Below, in pieces: positions 1-3,764 of a stretch of DNA of 64,000 bases (position 1 is its first letter; every line of letters starts with the position of its first letter). The position numbers and the translations under genes were made by a program. Below the pieces are notes generated by a model that was not told the DNA's origin, did no database searches, and was given only the letters and a program-made list of their open reading frames with translations. This DNA comes from a virus. Taxonomy: Duplodnaviria; Caudoviricetes. The stretch is from positions 1-64,000 of IMG/VR virus record IMGVR_UViG_3300028591_000106. One strand, given 5' to 3'.

Positions 1-92
1 CTGATTTCAAGAGAGAGTTTATATCGGAGACCTTACTTCCGGCTTATAGCCGGTGGTCTTGCCGTTCGGGTTTCCGTTTCCCTTTCCCCTGT
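1..92 (-). ncRNA. Putative structured non-coding transcript, truncated by the window edge
   Basis: Lies downstream of the promoter at 99-127 and starts ACAGGG like the two RNA cassettes. No ATG in the first 92 nt. Nested stems: agacc 28-32 / ggtct 55-59 enclose ccggct 39-44 / agccgg 48-53. Confidence 0.45.
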
Positions 93-98
93 GATTAT

Positions 99-127
99 AT
101 TATATCACATCCTAGGGAAAAAGTCAA
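99..127 (-). promoter_or_regulatory. sigmaA/sigma70 promoter, cassette 1
   Basis: Minus strand TTGACT-17 nt-TATAAT with TG extended -10 and an upstream A/T tract. Confidence 0.9.
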
Positions 128-157
128 GCCTTTTTGAAAAAAAATATCGGTTCTCTG

Positions 158-200
158 TTTTGCACAAAAATATTCAACGATCCGAATAATTTTTGTGCAA
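158..200. repeat. TTGCACAAAAA...TTTTTGTGCAA inverted repeat upstream of the promoter; related copies near 1168-1210 and 2001-2050
   Basis: Visible directly upstream of the promoters of cassettes 1, 3 and 5. Confidence 0.7.
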
Positions 201-231
201 TCTGCACGGCGCCGCACAATATGCTTTAGTG

Positions 232-279
232 ATTTAGCTTGCTAAAGCGTCGCCTGCGCCTTACTTTATCGCTTTAAAG
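232..279. repeat. Paired palindromic site CTTTA-N6-TAAAG x2, copy 1
   Basis: ATTTA-gcttgc-TAAAG 232-247 and CTTTA-tcgctt-TAAAG 264-279, with a GC-rich linker. Confidence 0.85.
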
Positions 280-297
280 CGTGAAAGTCAATTTGTT

Positions 298-324
298 AAA
301 AGAAAAGGCGCATTTCTGCGCCCT
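298..324 (-). terminator. Intrinsic terminator of cassette 2
   Basis: GGCGCA/TGCGCC hairpin followed by a U-tract on the minus strand. Confidence 0.75.
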
Positions 325-677
325 TACAGATTGATATAATGGAGCGAACCGTCAGGACGATGATAAACAATCATATTAACTATATCATCTTCTACTGTTT
401 CGGTGTTCATGTCATAGAAATAAACATCATAAACGCCGCCGGAAACTGTCTCAATGCCTACGCGCCAGATATTGCCGTCAGGAGTAATTATGCAGTCATT
501 GTCACAACCGACACCGCCCGAAACTGTATAAGAATCGCCGTAGTCAGTCATGGAGCGAGTGTAGACGAAATATGTGCCAGTGATGGACTTGGTGCGCGGC
601 TCGGGACGATTGAAAGACGGAACAGAGAACGAAACGAGAACAAGAATCAGAACCAGAATAGACTTGATGTACTTCAT
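324..677 (-). CDS. Hypothetical secreted or membrane-anchored protein (117 aa)
   Basis: Own promoter, GGAAAGGGG RBS and terminator; basic-then-hydrophobic N-terminus MKYIKSILVLILVLVSFS. Confidence 0.8.
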   Translation of the reverse strand: MKYIKSILVLILVLVSFSVPSFNRPEPRTKSITGTYFVYTRSMTDYGDSYTVSGGVGCDNDCIITPDGNIWRVGIETVSGGVYDVYFYDMNTETVEDDIVNMIVYHRPDGSLHYINL

Positions 678-703
678 AGTAACAACCCCTTTCCTATGGT
701 CTT

Positions 704-732
704 ATTATACCACATTTTCCGTGATTTGTCAA
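704..732 (-). promoter_or_regulatory. sigmaA promoter, cassette 2
   Basis: TTGACA-17-TATAAT with TG extended -10. Confidence 0.9.
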
Positions 733-774
733 CCCCTTTTTGAAAATTTCTCAAAAAAATTTTTTCTTTTCATG

Positions 775-822
775 CTTTAACTCGTTAAAGTGCCGCCCGC
801 GCCACGCTTCAACACTTTAAAG
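775..822. repeat. Paired palindromic site, copy 2
   Basis: CTTTA-actcgt-TAAAG 775-790; CTTCA-acactt-TAAAG 807-822. Confidence 0.85.
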
Positions 823-840
823 CACGAAAATCAATTTGTT

Positions 841-875
841 AAAAAAAACTGATCTGCGAGAGACTCACAGATCAG
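841..875 (-). terminator. Intrinsic terminator of cassette 3
   Basis: 12-bp stem (849-860 / 864-875) followed by U8 on the minus strand. Confidence 0.85.
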
Positions 876-1053
876 CCGCCATTTCACCGACCCAAGACAG
901 GAACTCTTCGGACTCCAGAACGGACTCGCCGAACCGCTCGACCAACTTGTCCTCAACAACGGAGAACTTGTCGGAGTCAAACAGCTTCCACCAACCGGAC
1001 AGACCGAACATTTCCATAACTTCCTCGAAAACTTCCTCAAAAACCTCAAACAT
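865..1053 (-). CDS. Small, very acidic protein (62 aa)
   Basis: GAGG RBS, own promoter and terminator; 17 D/E versus 4 K/R. Confidence 0.8.
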   Translation of the reverse strand: MFEVFEEVFEEVMEMFGLSGWWKLFDSDKFSVVEDKLVERFGESVLESEEFLSWVGEMAADL

Positions 1054-1108
1054 TTTAATTTCCTCACTTTCATTTATTGGGTTTGTCTTACCTCTTCCCT
1101 GTGATTAT

Positions 1109-1137
1109 ATTATACCACACTCTAGGAAAAAAGTCAA
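1109..1137 (-). promoter_or_regulatory. sigmaA promoter, cassette 3
   Basis: TTGACT-17-TATAAT with TG. Confidence 0.9.
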
Positions 1138-1240
1138 TACCTTTTTGAAAAAAATATCAGTTCTATGTTTTGCACAAAAAGTGGAGCAGCTAGGAATATT
1201 TTTTGTGTATTTTGACAGCGGCGCACAATTTGCTTTATTG

Positions 1241-1288
1241 CTTTAACTCGCTAAAGTGCCTGCGCCGCCGCGCTTTAATGCTTTAAAG
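1241..1288. repeat. Paired palindromic site, copy 3
   Basis: CTTTA-actcgc-TAAAG 1241-1256; CTTTA-atgctt-TAAAG 1273-1288. Confidence 0.85.
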
Positions 1289-1308
1289 TGTGAAAATGAG
1301 TTGTAAAT

Positions 1309-1546
1309 TAAAAACGGCTTGGTTTCGTCAAGCCATTAGAACCCGTTGACCTTTTAGCGCTGACTTTTGTTTACAGAGGAAGCAGAATCAAAGCAATCAA
1401 GACATTCTGTTATCACGAAACCTCTATTCTCGCCCTTGTGGTGGAACGAATCCCTCTTGATATTCTAGAAATCAAGGAAACTGTAACGATTCTAGTATGT
1501 TACCCACTGGAAGGAACCGCTTTGGGAGCGCCTTCCCTCTCCCTGT
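1309..1546 (-). ncRNA. Unassigned structured ncRNA, copy A (~235 nt)
   Basis: Lies between the promoter at 1553-1581 and a terminal hairpin (1316-1334) plus U-tract. No convincing ORF. Colinear with copy B, with several compensatory base changes. Confidence 0.75.
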
Positions 1547-1552
1547 GATTAT

Positions 1553-1581
1553 ATTATACCACACTTTAGGCGATTTGTCAA
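1553..1581 (-). promoter_or_regulatory. sigmaA promoter, cassette 4
   Basis: TTGACA-17-TATAAT with TG. Confidence 0.9.
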
Positions 1582-1622
1582 CCCCTTTTTGAAAATTTCT
1601 CAAAAAAATTTTTTCTTTTATG

Positions 1623-1669
1623 CTTTAACGCACTAAAGTGCCCGCGCCGCCTGCTTTACCCATTTAAAG
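1623..1669. repeat. Paired palindromic site, copy 4
   Basis: CTTTA-acgcac-TAAAG 1623-1638; CTTTA-cccatt-TAAAG 1654-1669. Confidence 0.85.
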
Positions 1670-1689
1670 TGCGAAAGTCGAAATGCAAA

Positions 1690-1935
1690 ATTAAATCCGG
1701 TTTGTTTCGTCAACCGGTAAACCGCCGCACTATTAGCCCAGATTTTTGATTACAGAGAGAACAGAAGCAAGGCAAGCGGGACGATCCTCACAAACTCTCT
1801 ATTCCCGTCCGTTTAGTGGAACGGATACTGCCGATATTTTAGAAATCGTGCCAACTGCAACCTCTTTAGAGCGTTGCCGCCTGAGAAGAACCGCTTTAAG
1901 GGGAAGACCCTTGGGAGCGCCTCTCATCTCCCTGT
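1690..1935 (-). ncRNA. Unassigned structured ncRNA, copy B (~245 nt)
   Basis: Lies between the promoter at 1942-1970 and a terminal hairpin at 1697-1717. Paralog of copy A with one extra inserted hairpin (AAGGG-ucuuc-CCCUU). Confidence 0.75.
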
Positions 1936-1941
1936 GATTAT

Positions 1942-1970
1942 ATTATACCACACTCTAGGGAAAAAGTCAA
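1942..1970 (-). promoter_or_regulatory. sigmaA promoter, cassette 5
   Basis: TTGACT-17-TATAAT with TG. Confidence 0.9.
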
Positions 1971-2051
1971 CCCCTTTTTGAAATTTTTTTCGGATCTCCG
2001 TTTTGCACAAAAAGTCCGTTTTTTTCTCGTTCGATTTGGCTATTTTGCGAA

Positions 2052-2080
2052 TAGACAAAATCAGAAAAAAGTGGTATAAT
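2052..2080 (+). promoter_or_regulatory. sigmaA promoter, cassette 6 (divergent)
   Basis: TAGACA-17-TATAAT with TG. Confidence 0.85.
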
Positions 2081-2133
2081 ATAATCAACAAAGGGAGAGA
2101 AAAGCCCTAATAAATGAAAGCGAGGAAAATACA

Positions 2134-2241
2134 ATGATGACTAAGATGATTGAGAACTGGCAGAACAAGGTAATCCGCAAGTACGGCTTCGAGAACTGGC
2201 GCACCCTGCTGGTGTTCCGTCTGACCCGCGTGATCTTCTGA
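2134..2241 (+). CDS. 35-aa basic peptide MMTKMIENWQNKVIRKYGFENWRTLLVFRLTRVIF (below the ORF-track cutoff)
   Basis: GAGG RBS; leader AATAAATGAAAGyGAGGAAA shared with cassette 3; own promoter and terminator. Confidence 0.75.
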   Translation: MMTKMIENWQNKVIRKYGFENWRTLLVFRLTRVIF

Positions 2242-2265
2242 GGGCTGAAAAGCCCTCATTTTTTT
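2239..2265 (+). terminator. Intrinsic terminator of cassette 6
   Basis: TGAGGGCT-gaaa-AGCCCTCA followed by a T-tract. Confidence 0.85.
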
Positions 2266-2282
2266 ACCTCTGTTATTTCGTA

Positions 2283-2332
2283 CTTTAACGCGCTAAAGCG
2301 CCCGCCCCGTCCCCTACTTTACCCCTTTAAAG
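2283..2332. repeat. Paired palindromic site, copy 5
   Basis: CTTTA-acgcgc-TAAAG 2283-2298; CTTTA-cccctt-TAAAG 2317-2332. Confidence 0.85.
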
Positions 2333-2445
2333 CGTGATCATTTACGGGTACGGCGGCAAATGACATAATTAAAACTTTTAACTAAAGACTACCTTTTATT
2401 TAGAATCAGAAAAAGATTTTACAAAAAGTTTTTTTTCAAAACCTC

Positions 2446-2474
2446 TTGACAAATCAATATAAATGTGATATAAT
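2446..2474 (+). promoter_or_regulatory. sigmaA promoter, cassette 7
   Basis: TTGACA-17-TATAAT with TG. Confidence 0.9.
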
Positions 2475-2500
2475 AGAATCATGGAAAGGATGTTGATACT

Positions 2501-2938
2501 ATGACTAATAAACCTACTCTCTATACACTCGTTGGCTTGCCTGCTTGTGGCAAATCTACCTACTGTATGAATAACAATGATTGTGTTATTGTCTCTACTG
2601 ATGCAATCCGCAAAGAACTGTATGGTGACGAATCTGCACAGACCAATAACGCAAAGGTGTACCATATCGCACATGAACGCATTGCGCTTGCTCTCGCATC
2701 TGGTAAGAATGTTATTTTTGATGCTACAAATATAAACAAGAAAGCAAGAAAAAGAGTATTGAAACACAATGCATATCATATTGCTGTTTGCTTTCTTATC
2801 TCTTCCTATGAGTGCAAAAAACGAAATAAAAAGCGTTCTCGTCATGTTCCTGAATCTGTAATTGATGATTATTACAAACGAATGACTATACCTTCTAAAG
2901 CAGAAGGCTTTGATGAAGTCTTATTTGTTTATAAATAA
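2501..2938 (+). CDS. P-loop polynucleotide kinase (AAA_33 / PseT kinase-like)
   Basis: GLPACGKST Walker A, STDAIR, IFDATN, and lid motif RNKKRSRHVPESVI. Confidence 0.85.
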   Translation: MTNKPTLYTLVGLPACGKSTYCMNNNDCVIVSTDAIRKELYGDESAQTNNAKVYHIAHERIALALASGKNVIFDATNINKKARKRVLKHNAYHIAVCFLISSYECKKRNKKRSRHVPESVIDDYYKRMTIPSKAEGFDEVLFVYK

Positions 2939-2954
2939 AAATAATGTGAAACTA

Positions 2955-2983
2955 TTGACAAATCACTCTATTTGTGATATAAT
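2955..2983 (+). promoter_or_regulatory. sigmaA promoter, cassette 8
   Basis: TTGACA-17-TATAAT; leader almost identical to that of cassette 7. Confidence 0.9.
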
Positions 2984-3009
2984 AGAATCATGGAAAGGAT
3001 GATGATACT

Positions 3010-3417
3010 ATGAGTAGAAAGAATGAGCGAATCCTCTATACTGGAATCGAATGCGTCGTTGACGGAAAAGTCGTGCATTGCACACTTGCTTATCTGAATC
3101 TTGATCCTGATTCTTATGGTGCAAGAAACTATTTTCCGTTCTTCCCTTATGGCGAAAGCGTCAAACTGCATCTTGTTCGTAAAGGCTCGAACGCAACGCA
3201 TTCTGGTTATCAAGTCGAACTGCCTGCACACCTCATCGGCTTCTTCAAAGAACACATACCACATATTACAATGTCTGTTGCTGATGGTTGCAAACCTGTT
3301 GACACTTGGAAAGTATTTGCTACGCAAAGCAATAGTGTTGATTGTGACATAACTGTTGTTGGCACTGTTGGCTACTGGACAAGTAAGCACGGATTCCAGA
3401 CAAAACCCCTTATATAA
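3010..3417 (+). CDS. 2H phosphoesterase (cyclic phosphodiesterase-like)
   Basis: Two HxT motifs: VHCTLAY and PHITMSVADGCKPVDT. Confidence 0.7.
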   Translation: MSRKNERILYTGIECVVDGKVVHCTLAYLNLDPDSYGARNYFPFFPYGESVKLHLVRKGSNATHSGYQVELPAHLIGFFKEHIPHITMSVADGCKPVDTWKVFATQSNSVDCDITVVGTVGYWTSKHGFQTKPLI

Positions 3418-3423
3418 TGAACT

Positions 3424-3454
3424 GCACAGAACGCTTGTTCTGTGCTTTTCTTTT
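3424..3454 (+). terminator. Intrinsic terminator
   Basis: GCACAGAAC/GTTCTGTGC stem followed by a T-tract. Confidence 0.85.
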
Positions 3455-3764
3455 GCATTGTAATAATTAAAATATTTAACTAAAGCCTGCATTATTATAT
3501 AGCCCCATGGGAGCAGCTAGCAATCTAAATCAAACGAATGAATAAAAATAAAAGTTTGTTGTTTGTATAAATTAAAATAATAAATAAATAGTTATTGACT
3601 GTGTGCTGTGCAAATAAAAACTGTCGTGCTTTAATGTGTTAAAGTGCCCGCCCCTGAATCTAAAATGCAGGGCGTAGGTCTAGGTCTAGGTCTTAGCTCA
3701 GGCAACCCGGGGGTACCTTTGGGAAATTTTTCGCTTTAACTTGTGAAAGTGGGGGCGGCTGCTA

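What the first reader, a model, noticed from the sequence alone, without database searches (positions are those of the whole stretch)
1309..1935. Two paralogous, independently promoted ~240-nt structured RNAs of unknown family with tRNA/tmRNA-like parts and CUA loops in an amber-recoded phage
Seen: two minus-strand cassettes (A 1546-1309, B 1935-1690) have consensus sigmaA promoters and terminal hairpins with a shared ACGAAAC loop, but no shared ORF. They are colinear and differ by compensatory changes: GGAAGG/CCUUCC vs GAGAGG/CUUCUC; GUAAC/GUUAC vs GCAAC/GUUGC; UUGAU/AUCAA vs CGAU/AUCG closing a conserved loop UUCUARAAU (1457-1475; 1832-1848); UCGUUC/GGGCGA vs CCGUUC/GGACGG closing CACCACAA / CACUAAAC (1430-1449; 1805-1824); AGAGG/CCUCU vs AGAGAG/CUCUCU; and CGAGA/UCUUG vs CGGGA/UCCCG, which crosses the previous helix (pseudoknot) and competes with the ACCA hairpin. 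B also carries one inserted hairpin. Established: such covariation indicates selection on RNA structure. Inference (speculative): UU-CUA-RA fits the Y-U-NNN-R-N anticodon-loop pattern with the amber anticodon, and also reads as a T-loop with a 2-nt insert. The next helix resembles an alanine acceptor stem with a G.U at position 3-70 followed by ACCA/ACUA, in the permuted order of two-piece tmRNAs, although the 1-72 pair is mismatched. Possible roles are amber decoding or code switching, ribosome rescue, or decoys for host anticodon nucleases.
Basis: partly seen in the sequence, partly recalled or inferred. Interest (0 to 1): 0.88.

Follow-up and report, generated by a model that had tools for sequence, protein, structure and literature searches.

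The report
New phage early structured RNA family
Two neighbouring gene-sized cassettes in an amber-recoded phage make about 240-nt folded RNAs of a family not described before; they are real and under selection, but they are optional early cargo and not tRNA/tmRNA-like parts of the recoding machinery.

Summary
A (1546-1305, minus) and B (1935-1686, minus) each have a consensus extended -10 sigma-70 promoter and an intrinsic terminator. They share no ORF and differ largely by compensatory changes. I found 11 more copies on other metagenome contigs, including a third diverged type ("Gamma", L295:1424-1663).

On 10 distinct sequences, a seven-helix model (P1-P5, a pseudoknot, the terminator) is 98.8% paired. 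It has 19 covarying pairs against 4.8±1.7 in shuffles. The P3 hairpin (loop UUCUARAAU) and the P5/pseudoknot core are conserved; the P1, P2 and P4 stems are replaced wholesale between types.

Rfam and ARAGORN find nothing in A or B, although they call real tRNAs in sister cassettes. ACCA and the G·U pairs are not conserved. The phage has its own tRNA-Sup(CUA) at 144.9 kb. About 30 relatives, at least 16 of them amber-recoded, lack the RNA, as do strains with 99% identical neighbouring genes. So the tRNA/tmRNA and recoding readings are not supported.

The RNAs are swappable cargo in an early promoter-cassette array that elsewhere carries tRNAs, small proteins and other ORF-less RNAs. The array lies beside a polynucleotide kinase, and the genome also has an Rnl1 ligase and an orphan abiF antitoxin-RNA motif. 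My best guess is a trans-acting protein-binding or decoy RNA. Neither function nor expression is shown.

The parts
1553..1581 (-). Promoter of RNA A: -35 TTGACA, 17-nt spacer with TG extension, -10 TATAAT
   Evidence: 12/12 consensus match; part of a promoter block repeated 4-5 times against 0.01 expected
1305..1546 (-). RNA A (A type), about 242 nt from the inferred start to the end of the terminator U-tract
   Evidence: CM hit at 301.5 bits; no ORF shared with B or Gamma; 10 further A-type copies on other contigs
1942..1970 (-). Promoter of RNA B: -35 TTGACT, 17-nt spacer with TG extension, -10 TATAAT
   Evidence: 11/12 consensus match
1686..1935 (-). RNA B (B type), about 250 nt; 72% identical to A over aligned columns
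   Evidence: this is the only B-type copy found
1898..1912 (-). B-specific 15-nt hairpin (AAGGG-UCUUC-CCCUU) inserted in the apical loop of P1
   Evidence: Alignment gap in A and Gamma; folds as a local hairpin
1509..1536 (-). A: helix P1 (1536-1531 pairs with 1514-1509). B equivalent: 1925-1920 with 1888-1883
   Evidence: 3 covarying pairs, including the path A-U, G·U, G-C among A-type strains
1483..1503 (-). A: helix P2 (1503-1499 with 1487-1483). B equivalent: 1877-1873 with 1861-1857
   Evidence: 3 covarying pairs; the stem has a different sequence in Gamma
1457..1474 (-). A: hairpin P3 with the conserved 9-nt loop UUCUARAAU. B equivalent: 1848-1832
   Evidence: Stem core GAU/AUC and the loop are identical in all 13 copies apart from R = A/G; the closing pair covaries U-A/C-G
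1429..1450 (-). A: helix P4 (1450-1444 with 1435-1429), loop CACCACAA. B equivalent: 1825-1819 with 1810-1804, loop CACUAAAC
   Evidence: 4-5 covarying pairs; the stem is entirely replaced in Gamma (CUACUUG/CAAGUAG)
1373..1427 (-). A: helix P5 (AUAGAGG 1427-1421 with CCUCUGU 1379-1373) enclosing the conserved core. B equivalent: 1802-1796 with 1758-1752
   Evidence: 7 bp, 100% paired, 1 covarying pair
1346..1400 (-). A: pseudoknot helix (UUGAUU 1400-1395 inside P5 pairs with GGUCAA 1351-1346 in the 3' tail). B equivalent: 1779-1774 with 1730-1725
   Evidence: The strands are UUGAUU/GGUCAA in A, CCGCUU/GUGCGG in B and CCGAUU/GAUCGG in Gamma: 3 covarying pairs, 98% paired
1314..1336 (-). A: terminator hairpin with conserved loop ACGAAAC, followed by a U-tract. 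B equivalent: 1718-1696
   Evidence: Terminator scan; 4-5 covarying pairs

Best explanation
A and B are two diverged copies of an undescribed family of about 240-nt structured RNAs.

How they are made (inferred from sequence signals): host sigma-A RNA polymerase transcribes each one early in infection, from its own consensus extended -10 promoter to its own intrinsic terminator.

Fold (shown by covariation): four hairpins (P1-P4), a fifth helix P5 whose interior pairs with the 3' tail to form a pseudoknot, then the terminator. The P1, P2 and P4 stems change freely between types. The P3 hairpin (loop UUCUARAAU), the P5/pseudoknot core and the terminator loop are conserved in sequence.

Distribution (shown): the RNAs are accessory, swappable cargo of a divergent array of promoter-cargo-terminator cassettes. 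In sister strains the same array carries tRNA genes, small proteins and other ORF-less RNAs.

What they are not (shown): tRNA- or tmRNA-like, and not needed for amber recoding.

Mechanism (inferred, about 35-40% on its own): they act in trans as abundant protein-binding RNAs. The invariant P3 and core would be the recognition surface and the variable arms a scaffold or specificity element. They would serve host takeover or counter-defence, for example as a decoy or antitoxin-like inhibitor of an RNA-targeting host defence protein.
For: Promoters and terminators are in place. No ORF is shared and substitutions show no codon phase.

Structure:
- From A and B alone: energy z-score -4.4, 0/300 shuffles reach the compensatory count, and the transcribed strand scores better than its reverse complement.
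- From 10 distinct sequences of three types: 43 pairs, 98.8% paired, 19 covarying pairs against 4.8±1.7 in shuffles (0/500) and 0-4 when slid.
- Gamma was not used to derive the structure, yet it keeps P1, P2 and P4 with unrelated stem sequences.
- Strain-level variants follow A-U, G·U, G-C in P1 and G-C to A-U in the terminator.
- Many G·U pairs would be A·C on the other strand.

Accessory cargo:
- Present on 13 contigs.
- Absent from contigs with 99% or 86% identical kinase, which carry tRNA-Lys/Asn/Ala/Arg cassettes and other cargo instead.
- Absent from 29 relative records.
- Cassette order differs between strains.

Counter-defence context:
- The adjacent kinase resembles the RNA-repair kinase domains of Pnkp enzymes.
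- The genome has an Rnl1-type and an Rnl2-like RNA ligase.
- An abiF-motif RNA scores above Rfam's gathering threshold at G000 146235-146271, with no Abi_2 gene in the contig. That motif is an RNA that neutralises the AbiF toxin by direct binding (bioRxiv 10.1101/2025.04.15.648962).
- Phage tRNAs are known counter-defences (PMC11555353).
Against:
- Only three independent lineages exist. B and Gamma share the P3 and P5 sequences, so some covariation counts are not independent events.
- Alignments A4 and A5 are fitted to the model.
- Single-sequence folding energies are not unusual (z -0.3 and -1.5).
- The inner P1 helix is broken in four A-type variants.
- No partner protein is identified, and nothing ties the RNA specifically to defence. 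The context argument is guilt by association.
- The family was found only in one narrow sub-lineage, so it could be a young, weakly selected element.
Confidence: 0.55

Rival explanations
1. Base-pairing regulatory RNA. The variable loops of P2 and P4, or the A-rich linker, pair with host or phage RNAs (mRNAs or tRNAs), and the conserved core recruits or stabilises. The divergent paralogues would have different targets.
For: The scaffold-plus-variable-loop pattern, and the coexistence of divergent types in one genome (A+B in the window, A+Gamma in L295). Short complementarities exist to the phage tRNA region: 12 nt of A's P4 to G000 145788-145799, and 10 nt of B's P4 to nt 3-12 of tRNA-Sup.
Against: No complementarity in the 146.6-kb contig exceeds chance; all BLAST E-values are at or above 0.03, and dozens of equal-length matches occur elsewhere. 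The tRNA-region matches are roughly what its higher G+C would give. The host genome is unknown, so host targets could not be tested.
Confidence: 0.2
2. First reader's reading. A tRNA/tmRNA-like RNA whose CUA loop and ACCA hairpin serve amber decoding, code switching or ribosome rescue.
For: UUCUARAAU contains CUA and is conserved in all 13 copies. The phage is TAG-recoded.
Against: - ARAGORN and Rfam tRNA/tmRNA models are negative on A and B while positive on real tRNAs nearby.
- The loop has 9 nt, and there is no T- or D-arm.
- ACCA occurs only in the A type, and the G·U pairs are not conserved.
- The phage has its own tRNA-Sup(CUA).
- Recoded relatives and near-identical strains lack the RNA.
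Confidence: 0.04
3. Cis-acting leader or conditional terminator (riboswitch-like) that controls read-through into the next cassette.
For: A pseudoknot lies just upstream of the terminator. The terminator loop is conserved. Gamma's terminator has a poor U-tract and Gamma sits at the 3' end of a longer transcript.
Against: Every downstream cassette has its own consensus promoter. The downstream neighbour differs between strains. There is no Rfam riboswitch or T-box hit, and no alternative anti-terminator pairing with covariation.
Confidence: 0.06
4. No RNA function. The cassettes are decaying remnants of former genes, or double-stranded DNA elements such as protein-binding sites or recombination substrates of the shuffling array.
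For: Narrow distribution, presence/absence polymorphism, and unremarkable single-sequence folding energies.
Against: Compensatory changes persist across 65-72% identity. Strand-specific G·U pairs and whole-stem replacements keep the hairpins in place. A decaying sequence would not preserve 98.8% pairing.
Confidence: 0.06
5. The cassettes encode small peptides.
For: B has a 64-codon ORF if TAG=Q. Each copy has ORFs of 13-23 codons.
Against: No ORF is shared in frame among A, B and Gamma. The indels are 1, 2 and 4 nt long. Substitutions are flat across codon phases. No start codon lies at a proper distance from an SD sequence.
Confidence: 0.03

Closest known systems
abiF-motif antitoxin RNA (Rfam RF03085; RCd22 of Clostridioides difficile, bioRxiv 10.1101/2025.04.15.648962)
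   Same: A small structured RNA of Bacillota or their phages that acts by binding a protein (an RNA-targeting Abi toxin). One copy of this motif is present, without a toxin gene, in this same phage genome at G000 146235-146271. It shows that the phage carries RNA cargo of that kind.
   Different: A and B have no sequence or structure match to the abiF model. They are six times longer and have a multi-helix pseudoknotted fold. No cognate toxin is known.
Stable RNAs 'species 1 and 2' (rnaC/rnaD) of the phage T4 tRNA gene cluster (from my own knowledge, not checked here)
   Same: Phage-encoded stable small RNAs of unknown function that share a genomic module with phage tRNA genes, in a phage that also has polynucleotide kinase and RNA ligase 1.
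   Different: The T4 RNAs are co-transcribed and processed with the tRNAs and are partly tRNA-like. A and B have their own promoters and terminators, show no tRNA-like parts, and have no sequence relation that I could test.
Phage tRNA cassettes as counter-defence (PMC11555353; PMC13096335)
   Same: Same slot and same promoter-terminator packaging. Sister strains carry tRNA-Lys(CUU), Asn(GUU), Ala(UGC) and Arg(GCG) cassettes in the same array.
   Different: A and B are not tRNAs by any test used.
phi29 pRNA (Rfam RF00044)
   Same: A structured RNA of about 170-240 nt from an early promoter near a genome end and near the packaging genes of a Bacillota phage; sequence diverges while structure is kept.
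   Different: No Rfam hit. pRNA is essential and universal in its phage group, whereas A and B are missing from close relatives and even from near-identical strains.
tRNA / two-piece tmRNA
   Same: Only a CUA triplet in a hairpin loop, and an ACCA in one loop of one type.
   Different: No cloverleaf, no T-loop, a 9-nt loop, no conserved ACCA, no conserved G3·U70-like pair, and no tag ORF.

Membership tests
tRNA (RF00005 / ARAGORN) | Cloverleaf recognised by tRNA models | tested here: not met
   ARAGORN finds 0 genes in the window. Rfam finds no tRNA hit in 1-2300 even at E<=10. The same tools tRNAs at the other end of the genome and tRNAs in sister cassettes at 53-69 bits.
tRNA (RF00005 / ARAGORN) | 7-nt anticodon loop (Y-U-NNN-R-N) on a 5-bp stem | tested here: not met
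   The P3 loop has 9 nt (UUCUARAAU) on a 3-4 bp stem. The phage's real tRNA-Sup has the loop CUCUAAC on a normal arm.
tmRNA (one- or two-piece) | tRNA-Ala-like domain (G3·U70, T-arm, 3' ACCA) plus a tag reading frame | tested here: not met
   ARAGORN in tmRNA mode is negative on the whole genome. There is no Rfam tmRNA hit. ACCA occurs only in the A-type P4 loop. The P4 wobble pairs become C-G or U-A in other copies. No ORF is shared.
Any Rfam 15 family | Score at or above the gathering threshold | tested here: not met
   0 hits in the window at gathering thresholds. Only noise (E>2) appears in 1-2300 with permissive filters.
Structured non-coding RNA gene (generic) | Own promoter and terminator, no conserved ORF, significant covariation on the transcribed strand | tested here: met
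Structured non-coding RNA gene (generic) | A transcript of the predicted size is made | not testable with these tools
Type III / abiF-like antitoxin or decoy RNA | Recognisable antitoxin motif or tandem repeats, and a cognate RNA-binding toxin | tested here: not met
   A and B have no abiF, ToxI or other antitoxin hit. They are not short tandem repeats, and no toxin partner is known. 'Works like a decoy' remains an inference from context.
phi29-type pRNA | RF00044 match, and presence in all members of the phage group | tested here: not met
   No hit. Absent from 29 relatives and from near-identical strains.
Component of the amber-recoding machinery | Co-occurrence with TAG recoding across relatives | tested here: not met
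   16 of 19 relative loci tested show strong ORF gain with TAG read through (3 ambiguous), and all tested loci other than those picked as RNA carriers lack the RNA.

The most novel reading that the evidence does not exclude
The RNAs are modular decoys in an RNA-level arms race. The invariant CUA-bearing P3 hairpin and the pseudoknot core would bind and inhibit a host RNA-targeting defence protein, such as an anticodon nuclease or HEPN RNase that would otherwise destroy the phage's suppressor or other tRNAs. The interchangeable arms would tune specificity. This would make the left-end array an 'RNA arsenal' (tRNAs, an antitoxin mimic and new decoys) that protects translation in a recoded phage.
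Probability: 0.08. Interest if true: 0.85.

Novelty: new variant of a known kind. Interest (0 to 1): 0.5.

Why it matters
Few phage-encoded non-coding RNAs have a known role, and fewer are backed by covariation. This one gives three things:
- A clean new family with a pseudoknotted fold.
- A natural presence/absence polymorphism between near-identical strains.
- A genomic setting that groups it with tRNA cassettes, RNA-repair enzymes and an orphan antitoxin-RNA motif.

If the RNAs prove to be protein decoys, they would add an RNA class to phage counter-defence. They would also mark the promoter-cassette arrays of these large Bacillota phages as a place to look for more. The result also removes a tempting but wrong link between CUA loops and amber recoding.

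Tried and rejected
- Rfam at gathering and permissive thresholds, and ARAGORN: nothing in A or B.
- BLASTN of the region against 50,697 phage records: no match.
- IMG/VR pattern scans: none, or only chance or protein-coding matches. The excess of hits with a 13-nt gap came from conserved protein genes.
- GTDB genome pattern scan: two chance hits that the model did not confirm.
- nhmmer and the covariance models R1 and R2 on 39 terminase-flank loci and 29 whole relative records: no homologue.
- Antisense targets in the phage genome: only chance-level 10-15-nt matches. The matches to tRNA-Sup and to the tRNA-array spacer were considered and set aside as not significant given the local G+C.
- A P2-P3 kissing interaction (CUAGAA with UUCUAG) is possible only in the window's A copy and is not conserved, so I rejected it.
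- RF1 stop-codon mimicry by the UAR in the loops: considered, but there is no mechanistic basis or test.
- The 135-aa neighbour as a 2H phosphoesterase: two HxT motifs are visible, but there is no Pfam, PHROG or PDB sequence support.

Full report
**Setting.** The window is the first 64 kb of a 146.6-kb linear IMG/VR virus record, estimated 89% complete. Reading TAG as sense triples the summed length of long ORFs, from 19 kb to 60 kb, so the phage is amber-recoded. The nearest cultured phages are large siphoviruses of Bacillota (Geobacillus E3, SPbeta-like), with less than 40% terminase identity. The window has no tRNA. The other end of the contig has 11 tRNAs, including a Gln-like tRNA-Sup(CUA) at 144941-145014.

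**The observation.** Positions 1-3500 hold a divergent array of near-consensus sigma-70 promoters with TG extension, each followed by a short cargo and a terminator.
- Leftward cassettes are B (1935-1686), A (1546-1305), a 62-aa acidic protein, a 117-aa protein, and an ORF-less cargo that runs off the contig.
- Rightward cassettes are a 35-aa peptide, a polynucleotide kinase and a 135-aa protein.
- A and B are colinear and 72% identical. They share no ORF in code 11 or with TAG=Q.
- RNAalifold on the pair gives 55 pairs, 10 compensatory and none broken.
- Against 300 column-shuffled alignments the consensus energy has z = -4.4, and no shuffle reaches 10 compensatory pairs.
- The signal is stronger on the transcribed strand than on its reverse complement.
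- Single-sequence energies are unremarkable.

**Finding relatives.**
- Sequence and pattern searches of phage records and IMG/VR found nothing.
- A two-sequence covariance model found nothing near the terminase of 39 relatives, or in 29 whole relative records, 12 of them at least 90% complete.
- Going through neighbouring proteins worked. Homologues of the kinase and of the 62-aa protein led to short metagenome contigs of the same phage lineage.
- One metagenome pattern scan gave contig LXOW01340413.
- These contigs carry 10 further A-type copies and, in L295:1424-1663, a third type, Gamma. Gamma is 65% identical to A and 72% to B.
- B was found only in the window.

**Structure.**
- Gamma was not used to derive the model, so it tests it. 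P1, P2 and P4 are present at the same places with unrelated stem sequences. For example, P4 is UCGUUC/GGGCGA in A, CCGUUC/GGACGG in B and CUACUUG/CAAGUAG in Gamma.
- I enumerated all helices kept in every sequence. This showed that CCUCUGU pairs best with AUAGAGG (P5).
- It also showed that UUGAUU inside P5 pairs with GGUCAA in the 3' tail. The strands are CCGCUU/GUGCGG in B and CCGAUU/GAUCGG in Gamma. This helix crosses P5 and makes a pseudoknot.
- The seven-helix model has 43 pairs and is 98.8% paired. Nineteen pairs change on both sides, against 4.8±1.7 in shuffles (0/500) and 0-4 when partners are slid.
- Among A-type strains, one P1 pair runs A-U, G·U, G-C. A terminator pair goes G-C to A-U. 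Most other changes fall in loops.
- The inner P1 helix is broken in four variants and is doubtful.
It has a mismatch in Gamma and overlaps the better supported helix.
- Conserved in sequence across all types are the P3 hairpin with loop UUCUARAAU, GAAUAGAG, the stretch from CUCUGUAA into the A-rich linker, and the terminator loop ACGAAAC.

**What it is not.**
- Rfam and ARAGORN are negative on A and B even with permissive thresholds. They detect real tRNAs in sister cassettes and at the far end of the genome.
- The CUA loop has 9 nt on a short stem.
- CUA is not conserved in the P2 loop: Gamma has CACCAAAGA.
- ACCA is confined to the A-type P4 loop, and the P4 wobble pairs are not conserved.
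- The phage has its own suppressor tRNA.
- Of the 19 relative loci tested, 16 show clear gain from TAG read-through (3 ambiguous), and the relatives lack the RNA.
- Contigs whose kinase is 99% identical have other cargo in the same slot.
- The tRNA/tmRNA and recoding readings therefore fail their defining tests.

**What the surroundings say.** The array architecture is shared by relatives, but the cargo differs. In the closest strains the leftward cassettes carry:
- tRNA-Lys(CUU), Asn(GUU), Ala(UGC) and Arg(GCG), behind a structured leader of about 200 nt;
- small basic proteins;
- several further ORF-less cargos unknown to Rfam.

Cassette order is shuffled between strains: B-A-C-D-E in the window, C-A-E in L284, and A-C-Gamma-E in L295. 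The kinase next to B matches the kinase domains of bacterial RNA-repair Pnkp enzymes. The genome encodes an Rnl1-type and an Rnl2-like RNA ligase, and no RtcB. At G000 146235-146271, just past the tRNA array, there is an abiF-motif RNA scoring 39.0 bits against a gathering score of 37. The contig has no Abi_2 gene. That motif is an antitoxin-like RNA that neutralises AbiF by direct binding (bioRxiv 10.1101/2025.04.15.648962). Phage tRNAs are themselves documented counter-defences (PMC11555353).

**Interpretation.**
- Shown: a new, selected, strand-specific RNA structure in independently promoted cassettes; accessory and mobile among strains; not tRNA-like, not tmRNA-like and not coding.
- Inferred: early, abundant expression by host RNA polymerase, and action in trans.
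- The pattern of a conserved hairpin and pseudoknot core with freely changing arms, together with the coexistence of diverged types in one genome, fits a protein-binding scaffold with variable specificity. It also fits a base-pairing RNA with a common core.
- Given the company the RNA keeps, I favour a protein-binding decoy or antitoxin-like role in host takeover or counter-defence (about 35-40%). A base-pairing regulator comes next (about 20%). Neither is tested.
- No above-chance antisense target exists in the phage contig. The host is unknown. Expression could not be checked.

**Limits.**
- There are three independent lineages only, and B and Gamma share the P3/P5 sequences.
- The alignments are fitted to the model.
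- The searches that found copies were anchored on neighbouring genes, so the true distribution is unknown.

**Verdict.** This is a real and new RNA family, of moderate interest.

Noticed in passing
G000 146235-146271 (+), outside the window; L311:9236-9272: An abiF-motif RNA (Rfam RF03085, 39.0 bits against a gathering score of 37) lies just after the tRNA array. No Abi_2/AbiF gene is present in the 146.6-kb contig. It may be an orphan antitoxin-RNA mimic used against host AbiF abortive infection.
   Followed up: partly
window 1-88 (-), continuing off the contig; full copies at L284:2447-2735 and L295:1866-2074: The fifth leftward cassette carries another ORF-less cargo of about 290 nt. It is conserved between strains (84% identity to L284) and unknown to Rfam. 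It is a second candidate RNA family.
   Followed up: partly
L284:2925-3065 and L284:3210-3350: Two more ORF-less cargos of about 140 nt share a 3' module (GAAAGTGAGGATAGAAAAAACTTGCCGC...) before their terminators. The array seems rich in small RNAs.
   Followed up: no
L275:4434-4965 (-), L284:4017-4391 (+), L273:3907-4110 (-): Sister strains have cassettes with tRNA-Lys(CUU), Asn(GUU) and sometimes Ala(UGC). These tRNAs sit behind a GC-rich leader of up to about 200 nt (short in L273) and are separated by structured spacers, in the same array that holds A and B here.
   Followed up: partly
window 2501-2938 (+) and 3010-3417 (+); G000 138467-139051 and 115211-115693: The genome has an RNA-repair-type polynucleotide kinase (best PDB matches are Pnkp kinase domains). 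Beside it is a 135-aa protein with two HxT motifs but no family hit. Elsewhere in the genome are an Rnl1-type and an Rnl2-like RNA ligase. Together these look like a tRNA-repair toolkit.
   Followed up: partly
G000 about 145779-145920 (+): A stretch between tRNA-Glu and tRNA-Leu(UAG) starts and ends like an acceptor stem (TATCTATG...CATAGATA) and has a T-arm-like GCAGGTTCAAATCCTGT. It is about 140 nt long and is not called by ARAGORN or Rfam. It may be an odd or interrupted tRNA.
   Followed up: no
window 232-2332, between cassettes: Every cassette boundary carries repeated CTTTAAAGC / TTAAAGC motifs around a GC-rich core, and a TTTTTGTGCAAAAC box upstream of the -35 element. These are likely regulator sites or recombination handles for cassette shuffling.
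   Followed up: no
window 865-1053 (-): A 62-aa, very acidic protein (rich in E, D and F) is conserved at 75-100% identity in many strains and often lies next to the A-type RNA. It also occurs without the RNA (L273, L291).
   Followed up: partly
L013, L025, L046, L048 and the window's own left end: Several independent contigs of relatives end within a few kb upstream of the terminase, at the promoter-cassette array. This suggests assembly breaks at the repeated promoters, or a true genome end.
   Followed up: no
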